Source: a virus
Taxonomy: Duplodnaviria; Caudoviricetes
Reading direction: 5' to 3' (one strand)
DNA: 64,000 bases
Virus record (IMG/VR): IMGVR_UViG_3300009701_000005
Location: 1 to 64,000 of that record
Position 1 is the first letter of the stretch; each line of letters begins with the position of its first letter. The translations under genes were made by a program, and so were the position numbers. The notes under the pieces were generated by a model. It was given only the letters and a program-made list of their open reading frames with translations, was not told where the DNA came from and ran no database searches. Of this stretch, positions 22,589 through 32,015 are shown in pieces.

Positions 22589-22658
22589 AAGCAAATAGCA
22601 TAGTGGTTAATGCATAGGGGAGTGCCCAAAGACTCAGGTTCGAATCCTGATTTGCTTT
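22589..22658 (+). tRNA. tRNA-like element with shortened, non-canonical anticodon arm
   Basis: Acceptor AAGCAAA/TTTGCTT, D arm GCAT-AGTGGTTA-ATGC, T arm TCAGG-TTCGAAT-CCTGA; anticodon arm TAGGGGAGTGCCCA only 14 nt. Confidence 0.65.
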
Positions 22659-22807
22659 GTATGATTATTACAATGAAACCAGTAATTCAGTTGGTAGAAG
22701 TGCTGCCGATCCAGAGTCTTCCTCCTCTCGGTGAAGTGGCTATGTCGCTGGTTCGAGCCCAGCCTGGTTTCCCCCTCCTCTCTCATTTTCTCAACAGGAG
22801 TATTAAC

Positions 22808-25831: not shown

Positions 25832-26101
25832 ATGAAACTCATCACCAAGGCAATTCTTACCGGCGTAATTCTCAGTGCTGGTGCCGTAGTTGAAAAGCTA
25901 TTAACTCCAGCAGCAGCATTAATATCCAATAAGACGACAGTTTCACAGTTGGATAATAGTGATGCAGCCTACCTAGCAGTAACCTACCTTGGTAACGGGT
26001 CTGTTCTAGTAAACATCCTTGTTACTGCCGTGGCTTCTTTCTTAATAGTCCGGGTTTGGACTCGTAAATCTAAAAAGGTTGACAAAAATGAAGATCAGTA
26101 A
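25832..26101 (+). CDS. Two-TM membrane protein (SPFH operon partner)
   Basis: gaggt SD before ATG 25832; two hydrophobic helices. Confidence 0.7.
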   Translation: MKLITKAILTGVILSAGAVVEKLLTPAAALISNKTTVSQLDNSDAAYLAVTYLGNGSVLVNILVTAVASFLIVRVWTRKSKKVDKNEDQ

Positions 26102-27026
26102 AATTCGTTTCCTCATGGCCGCGGCAGTTCTTTTCACAACACTTTTGGCAGGATGTACTCAGCCAAAAGCCGTTGATGAAATCAAGATCATCGGCCCTTC
26201 TGACACAGCCTTTCTGGTTGCTTTGGATGGCGACACGCTGAAGAACCAAAACAGCATGAAGTCCGCTGAGTTCCTGGAATCGGCCAAGATCAGTGCAAAA
26301 CGCGTTTTGATCCCTCACAAGATCATCAACACTTGCCCTGACTGTAACGCATGGGATTACAGCCATTACCTGGACGTTCCAACTGCTCAATTGTTCACAG
26401 TTAGCCGTGCCCCAGTGGCAAGGTCTTGGACAAGTTCAGCAACGACAGGCACAAGTGTAAAGAACGAAGCTTTCTCGGTTGAATCCAATGAATCCATCGA
26501 TTTTGATATCGGTGCAACAATTATCGCTCACGTAGCAGAAGCTGACACGGCAAAGTTCCTATACTTGCATTCGGGAAGTCAACTGGAAACAGTGATCGAC
26601 GGTCAAGTGCGTAACTACGTTTCGTCAATCTTGTCCCGTGAAATGGGCTCCCATAACATTGACTGGGATCGTCAAAATAAGAATGCTGTGTTCACTACGG
26701 CTTTCAACGAAACCAAGACCTTCTTTGCAGCACAAGGCATTACAATTGACAGCCTTGGTTTTACTGAAGGCATGACTTACCATGACGCGGCAATTCAAAA
26801 AGCCATCAATGCTAAGTTTGCTGCTGACATGAACGTGCAAATTGCAGAAAAGACTCTGGAAGCGGCCAATCAATACGCCCAGGCCAAAGACGCAGTTAAG
26901 GTTCAGCAAGATATCGAGAATCGTAAGCGTGAACTCGATTTACAAGCAGCGGCTATTGCCCGTTGGGATGGAAAATTGCCGACTACCAATGCAACAAGTT
27001 CATTACCATTCTTGAACTTGAAGTAA
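26088..27026 (+). CDS. SPFH/Band 7 domain lipoprotein
   Basis: Lipobox LAGC, SPFH-like core (GITIDSLGF), coiled-coil, RWDGKLP tail. Confidence 0.7.
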   Translation: MKISKIRFLMAAAVLFTTLLAGCTQPKAVDEIKIIGPSDTAFLVALDGDTLKNQNSMKSAEFLESAKISAKRVLIPHKIINTCPDCNAWDYSHYLDVPTAQLFTVSRAPVARSWTSSATTGTSVKNEAFSVESNESIDFDIGATIIAHVAEADTAKFLYLHSGSQLETVIDGQVRNYVSSILSREMGSHNIDWDRQNKNAVFTTAFNETKTFFAAQGITIDSLGFTEGMTYHDAAIQKAINAKFAADMNVQIAEKTLEAANQYAQAKDAVKVQQDIENRKRELDLQAAAIARWDGKLPTTNATSSLPFLNLK

Positions 27027-29413: not shown

Positions 29414-29488
29414 GGGAACGTGATGGAATTGGTAGACATGCCGGGGTTGTACTCGGCCTTACAGGTTCGAAGCCTGTCGTTCCCTCCA
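29414..29488 (+). tRNA. tRNA-like element with 6-nt anticodon loop (isotype undetermined), CCA encoded
   Basis: Acceptor GGGAACG/CGTTCCC, D arm ATG-GAATTGGTAGA-CAT, stem CCGGG/CTCGG around GTTGTA, T arm ACAGG-TTCGAAG-CCTGT. Confidence 0.7.
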
Positions 29489-29526: not shown

Positions 29527-30049
29527 TGTAGAGTAGGTAGCTTATTGTTACCGATATCTACATGTAGAAAAGAGATCATCCCCTCTCTATTTCTACCCTT
29601 TGTGAAGTACAGGCAATTCACAAATGTAAAGTCGGGTTACCGACTGCCAGATTTCTCAGTTCTTAAATGAACAAAGCTCAGGTGCATTCGGCATAGAGTT
29701 TAGAGAAGTCTACTGTTGATGACATGGTAGTTCATCCTACAGTCCCTTTAAATCGCCGCGCACGACCCTTGGCAGATAACATCGCAGCAGTAGGGTCACC
29801 CTCTACGTTCTACAGTTCGTAGAGATTTTCTTAAGTCCACACATAACCCTGACGAGGGAGTTGAGATGCTGCCTTTCACCTAGCTACTTAATTGAATAGA
29901 GCCACTGGGGGCTCTTAAATAGCACCAGATTTATGATCGCAAGAGGATCTGTTCGGCACTTCGGTGGCAGATTAACAGTTGATGGAAATCGTTCCTCAGC
30001 TAATTTGGACTCAGGGGTTGATGCCAGAAATGGAATACACATCAACCCT
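29527..30049 (+). ncRNA. Candidate large structured ncRNA (~520 nt)
   Basis: No ORF of 60 aa or more; at least five clean hairpins; promoter upstream; flanked by tRNA-like genes. Confidence 0.55.
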
Positions 30050-30070: not shown

Positions 30071-30147
30071 CACCACAGTATCTCAACGGGCTTCTACCCC
30101 GTAGCCGAGTAATTGGATCAATGGGAGTTCGAGTCTCTCCTGTGGTG
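30071..30147 (+). tRNA. D-armless tRNA-Arg(TCT)-like element with long variable arm
   Basis: CACCACAG/CTGTGGTG, anticodon arm ACGGG-CTTCTAC-CCCGT, T arm GGGAG-TTCGAGT-CTCTC; only 7 nt where D arm should be. Confidence 0.6.
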
Positions 30148-30189
30148 CTAAGTTTTTTATAATCCTTCTTCTAATATTCCGAGAGTAAA

Positions 30190-30957
30190 ATGGCTAAACT
30201 TCACGAACTCCTAGCAGCAGAAAAAACAGTTCTGGCTCAATCCGCTAAACTGTTCACAGAAACGACGGCTAAACTTGGTAAGTCTCACTTTTGGGAAGGG
30301 TTCAACAAGACCCTGACTCTGGTGGCCGACAGCCCGACCAAGGCTGCAATTGAAGAAGCGGCAAAAGAAGTTAAACTCCTGCCTACAAATGTTGCAGATA
30401 CTTTGGCGTATTTCGTCAACTTTTGGTCAAAATCAGAAGACCTGCTGTTTTCCAAAAATGTCAGCAATCAGTTTGCAAAAGCTGATATAATTGTTAACGG
30501 AATCGTTTTGGTCACGGATGTTCCCGTTGACGAGTTGATGGGTCTTGAGCATCGCCTGGAAGGTTTGCGTCAAATGTTGGCACAAATGCCGACTCTGGAT
30601 GCAAGTAAGACTTGGAGCAAGGCCGAAGACCTGGGGCCTAATATTTGGCGCTCAGAGCCTGAAGTAACAATCAAGACTGACAAGACAGTGGACGCGGTAG
30701 TATTGTATCCAGCAACTGACAAATTCCCTGCCCAGGTGAAGGAATTCAGCAAGGATATTACCATCGGATCTTTTAAGTTGATCCGTACCTCTGGCGCGGT
30801 TACCTCGGTTGCTAAATCAGACATATTGAGCAATGTTGACAACCTCATCATGGAAGTCAAAAAAGCGCGTACAAGAGCGAATGACATTGAAGCAAAATCC
30901 CGTCAAATCGGCAAGACTTTGATGGATTTCATCCTTGCACCGTTGTCTGCGGAGTAA
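30190..30957 (+). CDS. Conserved-looking hypothetical protein (MAKLHELLAAE), helical/coiled-coil
   Basis: 255-aa ORF directly upstream of permuted tRNA-like RNA. Confidence 0.8.
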   Translation: MAKLHELLAAEKTVLAQSAKLFTETTAKLGKSHFWEGFNKTLTLVADSPTKAAIEEAAKEVKLLPTNVADTLAYFVNFWSKSEDLLFSKNVSNQFAKADIIVNGIVLVTDVPVDELMGLEHRLEGLRQMLAQMPTLDASKTWSKAEDLGPNIWRSEPEVTIKTDKTVDAVVLYPATDKFPAQVKEFSKDITIGSFKLIRTSGAVTSVAKSDILSNVDNLIMEVKKARTRANDIEAKSRQIGKTLMDFILAPLSAE

Positions 30958-31024
30958 AGAATTGGGTTAGTACAAGTTAGTGGTGCGTCATTGTAGTTGT
31001 AATCCCTGATTAACAATAACTAGT

Positions 31025-31200
31025 TGAATTTGCGCAAGCGTATTGGTTCGAATCCAGTCTTCCCGATTGAAAACACAAGATCTGAAAATATGTATACGGC
31101 CCTTGGGTCCGCCGTTTTAAATTCAGATTTGAGAGAAAAGGCCCTGCTCTTTCAGGTGCTTTCAATCGGGAAGTGCCGAAATTGGTAGACGGAAAATTCA
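31025..31200 (+). ncRNA. Circularly permuted type II tRNA-like module 1
   Basis: Order: anticodon 3' strand, V arm, T arm, acceptor 3', insert, acceptor 5', D arm, anticodon 5' strand; all stems pair. Confidence 0.8.
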
Positions 31201-31302
31201 TATACTATTTTGAAGATCAGGCTTTATTATCATCGTTATCGTATTGCCACTATTCGTTGATAATAAGGGTCCTGCATATCGTGTTCGGAGTATATTAAAA
31301 AA

Positions 31303-31433
31303 TCAATGGGTCTCCAGTTCGAATCTGGAACGCCCTTTTAGACCTCCAGACCTTTAACACGCATTACACAAGTTAAAGGGTAATATTTTGCTAGGGGTCT
31401 AAGAGGGCGGTAGCTCAGGGGTAGAGCAATTGA
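31303..31433 (+). ncRNA. Circularly permuted type I tRNA-like module 2
   Basis: TCAAT-GGGTC-TCCAG/TTCGAAT/CTGGA-ACGCCCT...AGGGCGG-TA-GCTC/GAGC-A-ATTGA. Confidence 0.8.
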
Positions 31434-31545
31434 CTATAGTCATCATTATTAAATACTGGTGAAACACGAATGTGGGATGTGTCGAAAGCACGAAGAAGCC
31501 CAGACTAGTCAGGTATGACGGCCTGGGTTCTTTCATTCAAACGCA

Positions 31546-31673
31546 AGGTTAGGCTTCTTATAGTACCTGCTTCATGCACAGAGTCGCAAGAGACAAGTGC
31601 AGTCATGCGTCAACATGGCAAAGGGCCTTTGACGGGGTCTTGATCGAAGCAGGTACTATAAGAGGCAAAACCT
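31546..31673 (+). ncRNA. Long-stem structured element (21-bp inverted repeat around a branched core)
   Basis: 31553-31573 pairs with 31646-31666 (one G-U); outer AGGTT/AACCT. Confidence 0.6.
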
Positions 31674-31694
31674 AATTTTCAATTGGGGAATCCA

Positions 31695-32015
31695 ATGAAT
31701 TACATGACAAACTTTAAACGTATTCTTATTTTTTTAGTAACTTTAACCGTTGCTAGTTGTGCAATGGAACCCCAACCAGCTTTTGCTATTACCGGTAACT
31801 GGTACTCTGAGCCCGGTTATAAATTTGTACCTTATTGTAATGTCCGTTTAGGAGATACCGATCTTATCAATACTAACCAGATTGTTGGTATAAGCATTGT
31901 GAAAACGACTGTTATAATATCGTTGAAAGACCGGGCTCATACAATAATATTCAAGAATCAACAAAAAGCCTTTGAATGGGTGCAGGAATTGTTAGATGGA
32001 AAGAAATGTACCTAA
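31695..32015 (+). CDS. Secreted/membrane hypothetical protein
   Basis: N-terminal hydrophobic signal. Confidence 0.6.
   Translation: MNYMTNFKRILIFLVTLTVASCAMEPQPAFAITGNWYSEPGYKFVPYCNVRLGDTDLINTNQIVGISIVKTTVIISLKDRAHTIIFKNQQKAFEWVQELLDGKKCT

What the first reader, a model, noticed from the sequence alone, without database searches (positions are those of the whole stretch)
31025..31433. Two tandem circularly permuted tRNA mimics in one structured RNA
Seen in sequence, module 1: anticodon-stem 3' strand TGAATTT (31025), V arm GCGCAAGCGT, T arm ATTGG-TTCGAAT-CCAGT, acceptor 3' CTTCCCG-A, ~90-nt insert, acceptor 5' CGGGAAG (31167), Leu-like D arm CCG-AAATTGGTAGA-CGG, then AAATTCA, which pairs with TGAATTT. 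The acceptor helix extends to a perfect 14 bp (31059-31072/31160-31173). Module 2 repeats the topology as a type I tRNA: TCAAT, GGGTC, TCCAG-TTCGAAT-CTGGA, ACGCCCT, insert, AGGGCGG, TA, GCTC-AGGGGTA-GAGC, A, ATTGA-CT. The linker between the two open anticodon stems is itself a helix (ATATACT/AGTATAT; TTATTATCA/TGATAATAA). Known precedents for the T-acceptor-D order are YrlA-type Y RNAs, permuted tRNA genes (Cyanidioschyzon, Thermofilum) and two-piece tmRNA. I see no Ro60 gene here, no adjacent GNCGAA Ro site, no G3-U70 and no CCA, and a tandem pair fits none of these. Inference: a multivalent tRNA-elbow decoy or scaffold, or a precursor cut by RNase P/3' nucleases into two-piece tRNAs.
Basis: partly seen in the sequence, partly recalled or inferred. 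Interest (0 to 1): 0.92.

Follow-up and report, generated by a model that had tools for sequence, protein, structure and literature searches.

The report
Two-headed tRNA-mimic RNA beside DUF7873
This phage makes a roughly 700-base structured RNA carrying two "inside-out" tRNA look-alikes, one of which gets a genuine tRNA-type CCA tail in environmental RNA; it belongs to a widespread RNA family that I found in neither Rfam nor the papers searched and that sits just behind one conserved protein of unknown function, much as Y RNAs sit beside Ro60.

Summary

They are not chance or tRNA debris. The same design lies just downstream, on the same strand, of the Pfam DUF7873 gene (here 30190-30957) in about 75 of 100 non-redundant loci from phages and bacteria. 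The acceptor, T and closing stems covary fully.

Conserved UAUCGU-type boxes and two long-range helices (P1, P2) frame the modules.

CCA follows the discriminator in 46 of 102 modules. In a moss metatranscriptome, one contig joins 31337 (the discriminator of module 2) + non-templated CCA to 30977. This maps a tRNA-type 3' end and the RNA's 5' end.

Best reading: a Ro60-independent, YrlA-like ribonucleoprotein RNA. Module 2 is opened and CCA-tailed, as in M. smegmatis YrlA; module 1 stays closed in this phage. Its function is untested.

No Ro60, tmRNA tag or anticodon loop is present, and Rfam has no matching family. This scan noted the same family before on other DNA (e1-2703945). Novelty: new variant of a known kind.

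The parts
30190..30957 (+). DUF7873 gene (255 aa), the conserved partner gene immediately upstream of the RNA
   Evidence: Pfam PF25283 E 1.9e-68. 329 homologues; about 50% identity to phage and bacterial members. AF2 model pLDDT 84 with no clear PDB fold match.
30977..30983 (+). Mapped RNA 5' end (30977) and the P1 5' strand TAGTGG (30978-30983)
   Evidence: Head-to-tail joint 31337+CCA -> 30977 in metatranscriptome contig X5. P1 pairs with CCACTA 31247-52. It is predicted by RNAalifold on the 6 closest RNAs and covaries across the family: GAGGC/GCCTC, GTGGGA/TCCCAC, GTGTGAT/ATCACAC and others.
30984..31003 (+). Box 1, a degenerate CAUCGUUAUCGU-type pyrimidine/A-rich box following P1
   Evidence: Same position as catcgttatcgt-type boxes in relatives. 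TATCGT is 17.8-fold enriched in family RNAs outside the modules (47 seen against 2.6 expected, 31 loci).
31025..31200 (+). Module 1: permuted Leu-like (class II) tRNA domain. AC-like stem 31025-31/31194-200, V arm 31032-41, T arm 31042-58, acceptor 31059-65/31167-73 extended to 14 bp, 101-nt insert 31066-31166, D arm 31176-92.
   Evidence: Family covariance model hit 27.3 bits, E 4.3e-8. The same Leu-type D arm with discriminator A is seen in more than 20 relatives. The RNA contig covers 31100-31337 without a break at 31167.
31222..31266 (+). Linker core: box 2 (31222-46, ..CATCGTTATCGTATTG), P1 3' strand CCACTA (31247-52), box 3 (31253-66)
   Evidence: The word ATCGTATT(G/A)CCAC is conserved in L060, L080, L117-L119 and others. 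Alignment A4.
31269..31285 (+). P2 5' strand (GTCCTGCAT-A-TCGTGTT), which pairs with 31463-31478
   Evidence: Constrained MFE fold. RNAalifold on the 6 closest RNAs shows compensatory changes. An equivalent linker-to-tail helix is seen in most two-module relatives.
31303..31433 (+). Module 2: permuted class I tRNA domain. AC-like stem 31303-07/31429-33, T arm 31313-29, acceptor 3' strand 31330-36, discriminator T 31337, 66-nt insert 31338-31403, acceptor 5' strand 31404-10, D arm 31413-27.
   Evidence: Family covariance model hit 31.3 bits, E 1.5e-9. The RNA contig ends at 31337 followed by non-templated CCA. The extended acceptor helix covaries in A4.
31440..31478 (+). Box 4 (31440-55, TCATCATTATTAAATA) and the P2 3' strand (31463-78)
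   Evidence: A catcgttatcgtaa-type box follows module 2 in relatives. P2 pairing.
31496..31532 (+). 3' hairpin with a conserved CAGGUAU loop, followed by a T-rich run
   Evidence: Conserved and covarying in the closest relatives (A4 columns 661-701). Weak terminator-like call at 31509-26.
31546..31674 (+). Long terminal hairpin (..GGCTTCTTATAGTACCTGCTTC / GAAGCAGGTACTATAAGAGGC..) with an inner insertion
   Evidence: A CTTATA...TATAAG hairpin sits at the same place in L115 and L117-L119. No RNA cover was seen here, and that absence is not informative.

Best explanation
The 740-nt gap behind the DUF7873 gene encodes one structured non-coding RNA, running from 30977 to about 31675. It is built from two copies of a Y-RNA-like unit: a long-range closing helix (P1 or P2), UAUCGU-rich boxes, and a circularly permuted tRNA domain whose anticodon stem runs on into the scaffold instead of ending in an anticodon loop.

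The modules keep the nucleotides that form the tRNA elbow, so tRNA enzymes should recognise them. In module 2 the hairpin that caps the acceptor stem is removed: the 3' side is trimmed to the discriminator (31337) and the host CCA-adding enzyme adds CCA. The matching 5' cut by RNase P at 31404 is inferred. The result is a nicked, two-piece tRNA-like head held together by the acceptor stem, the anticodon-like stem and P2. Module 1 (Leu-like, 14-bp sealed acceptor) stays closed in this phage.

I infer that DUF7873 binds the box/P1/P2 platform and that the particle presents tRNA-shaped heads to tRNA-binding factors. That would make it a Ro60-independent analogue of the Rsr-YrlA particle, probably acting in tRNA/RNA quality control, repair or counter-defence during infection.

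Shown: the conserved structure, the gene-RNA linkage, RNA presence, and the 3' end plus CCA. Inferred: RNase P cleavage, protein binding, and the biological role.
For: Gene-RNA linkage:
- A strict scan finds 102 permuted modules in 72 of 100 non-redundant DUF7873 loci. The covariance model rescues 3 more.
- Density is 100 modules per 95.8 kb downstream on the same strand, against 5 per 97.9 kb upstream and 6 per 95.8 kb on the opposite strand.
- Loci come from phages of Ralstonia, Klebsiella, Rhizobium, Arthrobacter, Vibrio and Pseudanabaena, from Burkholderiales, Bacteroidota and Planctomycetota genomes, and from uncultured viral contigs.
- Bacterial loci have unrelated cellular neighbours, so gene plus RNA travel as a two-part unit.

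Structure:
- Without selecting on acceptor pairing, 64 of 89 T-arm/D-arm pairs have 7/7 acceptor pairs; 0 of 89 reach 6 or more when slid by 4 nt.
- All 12 T-stem and acceptor pairs covary, and 0 of 500 shuffles reach the observed score.
- In the six closest RNAs, 43 of 67 consensus pairs show compensatory changes, including P1, P2 and the extended M2 acceptor. P1 covaries family-wide.
- Box word TATCGT is 17.8-fold enriched.

Processing:
- CCA occupies positions 74-76 in 46 of 102 modules, and CC in 67 of 102. Chance expectation for CCA is about 1 in 64.
- The X5 RNA contig reads 31100-31337 + CCA + 30977-31045. CCA is not in the DNA, and the DNA runs are collinear.
- Within the 4.5 kb laid, X5 covers only two non-coding stretches and no coding sequence.

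Precedent and context:
- M. smegmatis YrlA is cut by RNase P and CCA-tailed in vivo (PMC4201824).
- Rfam YrlA matches M2-type modules of relatives below threshold (33-38 bits, E 1e-6 to 2e-5).
- In relatives, RNA-end-healing genes lie nearby: a CCA-adding-type enzyme plus an RNA ligase (L110) and RtcB (L118).
Against: - No binding, processing or phenotype experiment exists. The CCA end rests on one low-depth contig (k-mer depth 3.2) from one metatranscriptome.
- No RNA cover was seen for the predicted second piece (31404 onward). RNase P cleavage is therefore not shown.
- About 20 diverged bacterial DUF7873 loci (Cytophagales and relatives) have no module within 2.5 kb. The pairing is therefore not obligatory.
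- In the reverse test, only 5 of 40 permuted Leu-like modules in viral contigs have DUF7873 in the fetched locus. The module type is thus shared with other RNA families, and some of those loci were short.
- The DUF7873 fold gives no hint of RNA binding.
- RNA-repair neighbours were seen in only 2 of the few wide contexts inspected, and this genome has none.
Confidence: 0.6

Rival explanations
1. A pure closed-acceptor tRNA-elbow decoy or scaffold (S. Typhimurium YrlA type). Both acceptor hairpins stay sealed, the RNA is one piece, and the CCA joint is a library artefact or a minor by-product.
For: - Module 1 has a perfect 14-bp sealed acceptor, and the RNA contig runs across its 5' acceptor boundary.
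- Closed long acceptor hairpins also occur in phiRSL1, L011 and L117-L119.
- The CCA evidence is a single contig.
Against: - A joint falling exactly at position 73 of a tRNA-like acceptor, followed by exactly CCA that is absent from the DNA, is very unlikely by chance.
- CCA is encoded at 74-76 in 45% of family modules while the flanking stem positions vary.
Confidence: 0.15
2. A precursor of chargeable two-piece tRNA-like molecules. Module 1-type heads carry A73 and a Leu-type D arm, which as I recall is what LeuRS needs without an anticodon. The heads would be aminoacylated and used off the ribosome, or as bait for enzymes that act on charged tRNA.
For: - Discriminator A accompanies the Leu-type D arm in the window and in more than 20 relatives. 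ACCA is encoded in M1 of KpLz-2_45, Mimi, L012-L014, L080 and L100.
- CCA is added on module 2.
- That LeuRS is anticodon-independent is established knowledge, recalled and not tested here.
Against: - In this phage module 1 is sealed and has no CCA.
- Module 2 has no recognisable anticodon-independent identity set (no G3-U70, no long V arm).
- There are no charging data.
Confidence: 0.12
3. Decaying remains of tandemly duplicated tRNA genes in the phage's tRNA island, with no function of their own.
For: - The region lies among aberrant tRNA-like genes (29414-88 and 30072-147).
- A permuted order is what a tandem duplication would leave.
- The covariance model also hits a tandem-tRNA site at 22623.
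Against: - The architecture is conserved across phages of at least six host genera and several bacterial phyla, with full compensatory change.
- It has a fixed position behind one gene.
- It has conserved non-tRNA boxes and P1/P2 helices.
- RNA is present.
Confidence: 0.03
4. A tmRNA-like ribosome-rescue RNA (a two-piece tmRNA analogue), or a natural circular RNA formed by ligating the CCA end to the 5' end.
For: - Permuted T-acceptor-D order with a CCA end, as in two-piece tmRNA.
- Rfam beta_tmRNA aligns locally to the T arm, acceptor and intervening hairpin of KpLz-2_45 module 2 (24.8 bits).
- A head-to-tail joint is seen in RNA.
- RNA ligase genes lie near some relatives.
Against: - ARAGORN, which detects permuted tmRNA, calls none in the window or in 18 family loci.
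- There is no G3-U70 and no tag frame.
- The beta_tmRNA score is far below the gathering score of 84.
- The joint is equally explained by reverse-transcriptase template switching or ligation between abundant molecules.
- This genome has no RNA ligase.
Confidence: 0.05

Closest known systems
YrlA (Y RNA-like A; Rfam RF02553), especially M. smegmatis YrlA (Chen et al. 2014, PMC4201824)
   Same: - A protein-partnered ncRNA encoded next to its partner gene.
- A closing helix plus a circularly permuted tRNA-like domain in T arm - acceptor - D arm order, with no anticodon loop.
- The M. smegmatis RNA is cut by RNase P and CCA-tailed in vivo, as module 2 appears to be here.
- M2-type modules of relatives give sub-threshold RF02553 matches.
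   Different: - No Ro60/TROVE gene in this complete genome or in 5 other family phage genomes. The partner gene is DUF7873.
- No RF02553 match in the window even at E 10.
- The Ro-binding GNCGAA helix is replaced by UAUCGU boxes with P1/P2.
- There are two modules in tandem, CCA is often encoded, and the acceptor inserts are long (101 and 66 nt).
Two-piece (circularly permuted) tmRNA of alpha- and beta-proteobacteria and cyanobacteria (Rfam RF01850 beta_tmRNA)
   Same: - A permuted gene order in which the T arm, acceptor 3' strand and CCA precede an intervening hairpin and the acceptor 5' strand.
- The intervening piece is removed to give a CCA end.
- A CAUUC...GAGUG intervening hairpin is shared with a subset of family M2 inserts.
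   Different: No tag reading frame, no G3-U70, a full D stem is present, and ARAGORN makes no call. The score is 24.8 against a gathering score of 84, and that is only in a relative.
Permuted tRNA genes (Cyanidioschyzon merolae, green algae, Thermofilum pendens; recalled from the literature)
   Same: The 3' half is encoded before the 5' half, and the acceptor ends are opened by tRNA-processing enzymes.
   Different: Those yield complete tRNAs with an anticodon loop through a circular intermediate and the splicing endonuclease. Here the anticodon stems continue into P1/P2 and no anticodon loop exists.
The 'novel tRNA-like molecule' proposed as a partner of SPFH/Band-7 scaffolds in RNA-repair systems (Burroughs and Aravind 2016, NAR; recalled from its abstract, paper not held)
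   Same: The idea of a Ro-independent tRNA-like ncRNA with another protein partner in an RNA-repair context. This window also encodes a weak SPFH-like protein at 26079-27026.
   Different: DUF7873 shows no profile similarity to that SPFH protein and gives no SPFH fold match. I could not check what RNA that paper describes.

Membership tests
YrlA / bacterial Y RNA (RF02553) | tRNA-like domain in permuted order (T arm, acceptor-like stem, D arm) closed by a helix formed by the RNA's flanks | tested here: met
YrlA / bacterial Y RNA (RF02553) | Encoded next to, and bound by, a Ro60/Rsr (TROVE) protein | tested here: not met
   No PF05731 match in the 100%-complete 79-kb genome, nor in 5 other phage genomes carrying the family. 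The host genome is unknown and binding is not testable here.
YrlA / bacterial Y RNA (RF02553) | Reaches the Rfam gathering score (69 bits) | tested here: not met
   No match at E <= 10 in the window. Relatives reach 18.6-37.6 bits.
YrlA / bacterial Y RNA (RF02553) | GNCGAAN0-1G motif in the 5' strand of the Ro-binding helix | tested here: not met
   The P1 5' strand is UAGUGG followed by box 1. The only GNCGAA-type word (GTCGAAAG 31481-88) is the loop of a small 3' hairpin.
YrlA / bacterial Y RNA (RF02553) | [quoted passage not shown] | tested here: inconclusive
   Non-templated CCA at 31337 in one RNA contig, and CCA encoded in 46 of 102 modules. RNase P cleavage was not observed.
Two-piece tmRNA | Tag-encoding reading frame with resume codon; detected by ARAGORN's permuted-tmRNA search | tested here: not met
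   No tmRNA call in the window or in 18 family loci.
Two-piece tmRNA | G3-U70 alanine identity pair in the acceptor stem | tested here: not met
   The 3-70 pair is G-C in both modules.
Permuted tRNA genes (C. merolae type) | The two halves reconstitute a full tRNA with a 7-nt anticodon loop | tested here: not met
   Both anticodon-like stems continue into longer helices or linkers (31005-31031/31194-31221, P2). No anticodon loop exists.
DUF7873-associated double tRNA-mimic RNA (uncatalogued; scan note e1-2703945) | Lies within about 1 kb downstream of a DUF7873 gene on the same strand | tested here: met
   The gene ends at 30957 and module 1 starts at 31025.
DUF7873-associated double tRNA-mimic RNA (uncatalogued; scan note e1-2703945) | Leu-like module followed by a class I module, framed by UAUCGU boxes and by leader-linker (P1) and linker-tail (P2) helices | tested here: met
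   Covariance model built without the window: E 1.5e-9 and 4.3e-8.

The most novel reading that the evidence does not exclude
DUF7873 and this RNA form a widespread Ro60-independent ribonucleoprotein of phages and bacteria. Its tRNA-shaped heads would be opened, CCA-tailed and, for the Leu-type head (A73 plus a Leu D arm), actually aminoacylated. The particle would then work as a charged tRNA surrogate off the ribosome, or as bait for or sensor of defence enzymes that attack tRNA acceptor ends. That would be a new class of tRNA-derived effector RNA rather than a passive mimic.
Probability: 0.15. Interest if true: 0.85.

Novelty: new variant of a known kind. Interest (0 to 1): 0.7.

Why it matters
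Y RNAs with tRNA-like domains have been known only as partners of Ro60. This locus belongs to a second, apparently undescribed system that reuses the same RNA design with a different, very conserved protein. That protein has no known fold match and no literature: a full-text search for DUF7873 returned nothing.

The system is common in phage tRNA islands, including cultivable phages such as phiRSL1, the Klebsiella/Serratia jumbo phages, Rhizobium phages and Arthrobacter phage Mimi. It also occurs as a free-standing gene-RNA pair in bacteria.

The RNA-level CCA end shows that host tRNA enzymes treat at least one module as a tRNA. This makes concrete experiments possible on what anticodon-less, CCA-tailed tRNA shapes do during infection. 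It also flags a blind spot in annotation: tRNA finders and Rfam both miss these RNAs.

Tried and rejected
- blastn of the region against 50,697 phage records found no match.
- The search for related loci with the single protein found nothing. An alignment was needed.
- Rfam at the gathering and E-value thresholds found nothing in 31000-31700.
- DUF7873 fold: Foldseek against PDB had no hit at E < 1e-3. VIA wide search gave only generic helical matches, best Z 8.4. The PDB profile search and PHROGs found nothing useful. The ESM Atlas returned only DUF7873 clusters.
- DUF7873 as a hidden SPFH protein is rejected: hhalign probability is 0.1%.
- A promoter for the RNA: no convincing sigma-70 site lies upstream of 30977, so I assume co-transcription with the gene and later processing. 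This is not shown.
- The self-contained linker hairpin is rejected as the conserved fold.
- tmRNA is rejected.
- The insert-hairpin motif CAUUC..GAGUG as a family-wide processing signal: it is present in only 10 of 60 inserts of 24-45 nt, and only loosely in the window.
- Strict one-to-one pairing of module and DUF7873 is rejected in both directions.
- Parts of the RNA without cover in the RNA runs (31046-31099 and everything after 31337) are not interpreted.
- The paper by Burroughs and Aravind (2016) and the 2020 Ro60 review could not be read.

Full report
**What is there.** The window is part of a complete 79-kb uncultured phage genome with inverted terminal repeats. Genes run on the + strand. 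Between the stop codon of ORF 30190-30957 and the next ORF (31683) lie about 740 nt without a plausible ORF.

I re-read the finding base by base and checked each helix by script.
- Module 1 (31025-31200) has a 7-bp anticodon-like stem, a short V arm, a canonical T arm (TTCGAAT loop) and a 7-bp acceptor stem that continues as a perfect 14-bp helix. It has a 101-nt insert and a Leu-type D arm (CCG-AAATTGGTAGA-CGG).
- Module 2 (31303-31433) is a class I version with a 66-nt insert. Its acceptor helix is extended by 8 further pairs.
- ARAGORN and Rfam see neither module.
- The stretch folds 4.4 sd better than shuffles.

**It is a family, tied to one gene.** The upstream ORF is a strong member of Pfam DUF7873 (E 1.9e-68). 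That protein has hundreds of homologues at about 50% identity. It occurs in 75 GenBank phage records, 47 loci of bacterial genomes and 53 IMG/VR loci.

A rule-based scan looked for a T arm, then a 7-nt strand, then its complement within 200 nt, followed by U8 and a D arm.
- It finds 102 permuted modules in 72 of 100 non-redundant loci, always downstream on the gene's strand.
- The density is 100 per 95.8 kb there, against 5-6 per about 96 kb upstream or on the other strand.
- A covariance model built from 49 modules of other loci recovers both window modules as top hits (E 1.5e-9 and 4.3e-8). It also rescues 3 of the 23 loci the scan had missed.
- About 20 diverged Cytophagales-type loci truly lack a module within 2.5 kb.

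The bacterial loci I inspected have unrelated cellular neighbours. Many phage loci sit inside tRNA arrays.

**Structure is under selection.**
- When T arms and D arms are paired up without looking at the acceptor, 64 of 89 have 7/7 acceptor pairs. None reaches 6 when the strand is slid by 4 nt.
- All 12 T-stem and acceptor pairs show double changes, far beyond shuffles and slid controls.
- Outside the modules the RNAs share UAUCGU-type boxes: TATCGT is 17.8-fold enriched, in 31 loci.
- The RNAs also share two long-range helices. P1 joins the leader to the middle of the linker. P2 joins the rest of the linker to the tail.
- In the window, P1 is UAGUGG 30978-83 with CCACUA 31247-52. P2 is 31269-85 with 31463-78.
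- RNAalifold on the window plus its five closest relatives predicts P1, both modules, P2 and a 3' hairpin with a CAGGUAU loop. Compensatory changes occur in 43 of 67 pairs. P1 takes at least ten different complementary sequences across the family.

The unit is therefore closing helix, then boxes, then permuted tRNA domain, used once (44 loci) or twice (26 loci).

**The acceptor ends are meant to be free.** CCA follows the discriminator in 46 of 102 modules, and CC in 67. It is usually base-paired inside the capping hairpin while neighbouring stem positions vary. The window encodes no CCA.

Public runs gave direct evidence. In a moss metatranscriptome (X5), one 310-nt contig reads 31100-31337, then CCA, then 30977-31045.
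- Position 31337 is the discriminator after acceptor strand ACGCCCT, and the genome reads TTT there.
- DNA runs, including an 81.6-kb contig of a 90-95% identical relative, are collinear.
- Within the 4.5 kb laid, X5 covers only this RNA and the neighbouring non-coding stretch 29536-29906. It covers no coding sequence, which argues against DNA carry-over.

A head-to-tail joint can come from a true circle, from ligation, or from reverse-transcriptase template switching between abundant molecules. In each case it marks a 3' end at U73+CCA and a 5' end at 30977, one base before P1.

The same contig runs from inside the module 1 insert through 31167, so module 1 is not cut at its RNase P-type site in that molecule. 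The evidence is thin: one contig at depth 3.2. The predicted second piece (31404 onward) has no cover, which I do not interpret.

**Comparison with known classes.**
- *YrlA.* This is the closest class. It has the same permuted tRNA-like domain on a closing helix, and M. smegmatis YrlA is cleaved by RNase P and CCA-tailed in vivo (PMC4201824). M2-type modules of relatives match Rfam YrlA at 33-38 bits against a gathering score of 69; the window does not match. The defining partner is missing: no TROVE gene here or in five other family phage genomes. The GNCGAA helix is replaced by the boxes.
- *Two-piece tmRNA.* It shares the gene order and the CCA end. In a subset of relatives it also shares an intervening-hairpin motif. 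There is no tag frame, no G3-U70 and no ARAGORN call.
- *Permuted tRNA genes of algae and archaea.* These reconstitute an anticodon loop; these modules cannot.
- *Other permuted modules.* Permuted Leu-like modules also occur in viral contigs away from DUF7873: 35 of 40 in a pattern scan, and one of five sampled records has a TROVE gene. The module is therefore a reusable building block, not unique to this family.

**The protein.** AlphaFold gives a confident model (pLDDT 84) of long helices packed on a beta-sheet. Neither Foldseek nor an exhaustive structural scan finds more than generic helical matches. Profile searches find nothing, and it is unrelated to the window's SPFH-like protein.

In two relatives, RNA-end-healing genes lie nearby: a CCA-adding-type nucleotidyltransferase plus an RNA ligase and RtcB. 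This genome has none of these, so the CCA must come from the host.

**Verdict.** This is a real, expressed member of a conserved RNA family that I found in neither Rfam nor the papers searched. It works like a YrlA-type Y RNA but has a different partner and a tandem build.

Function is inferred, not shown. This scan reported the same family earlier on another genome (note e1-2703945). My tests were run independently and agree with it. They add the P1/P2-box architecture for this subgroup, the encoded-CCA statistic and the RNA-level CCA end.

Noticed in passing
window 29527-30049: A second non-coding stretch between two aberrant tRNA-like genes is covered by a 371-nt metatranscriptome contig (29536-29906, depth 9.8, the highest in the 4.5 kb laid). 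No Rfam family matches it.
   Followed up: partly
window 29414-29488: A tRNA-like gene with a Leu-type D arm, only one arm between the D and T arms (6-nt loop, so ARAGORN reports a 2-nt 'anticodon'), and an encoded CCA.
   Followed up: no
window 30072-30147: A D-armless tRNA-like gene (TCT at the anticodon position, long V arm containing AATTGG) 43 nt upstream of the DUF7873 start codon. One cDNA insert from another metatranscriptome (X6) spans 30088-30221, from inside this element into the gene.
   Followed up: partly
L110 2760-6392; L118 2952-3459: In relatives, DUF7873 lies close to a PolyA_pol/CCA-adding-type enzyme and an RNA ligase (PF09414), or to RtcB. This hints at an RNA-end-healing context. 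None of these genes is in the window's genome.
   Followed up: partly
L130-L232 (viral contigs): 40 further permuted Leu-like tRNA modules, several of them identical short sealed hairpins (TTGGCCG..CGGCCAA). 35 have no DUF7873 in the fetched locus. One of five sampled records carries a TROVE/Ro60 gene. Other phage tRNA-mimic RNA families evidently share this module.
   Followed up: partly
L003 3570-3632 and other M2 inserts: The hairpin capping the module 2 acceptor in a subset of relatives (..CAUUC..GAGUG..) aligns to the intervening segment of betaproteobacterial two-piece tmRNA (RF01850, 24.8 bits). This may be a shared processing signal.
   Followed up: partly
window 26079-27026: A weak SPFH/Band-7-like ORF (Pfam E 0.0024, below the cut-off) lies 4 kb upstream. 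It is unrelated to DUF7873 by profile comparison.
   Followed up: partly
window 22623-22708: The family covariance model also scores the T arm of tRNA-Thr plus a following D-arm-like element (29.5 bits), with a poor acceptor helix. This is a tandem-tRNA false positive of the kind Chen et al. warned about.
   Followed up: no
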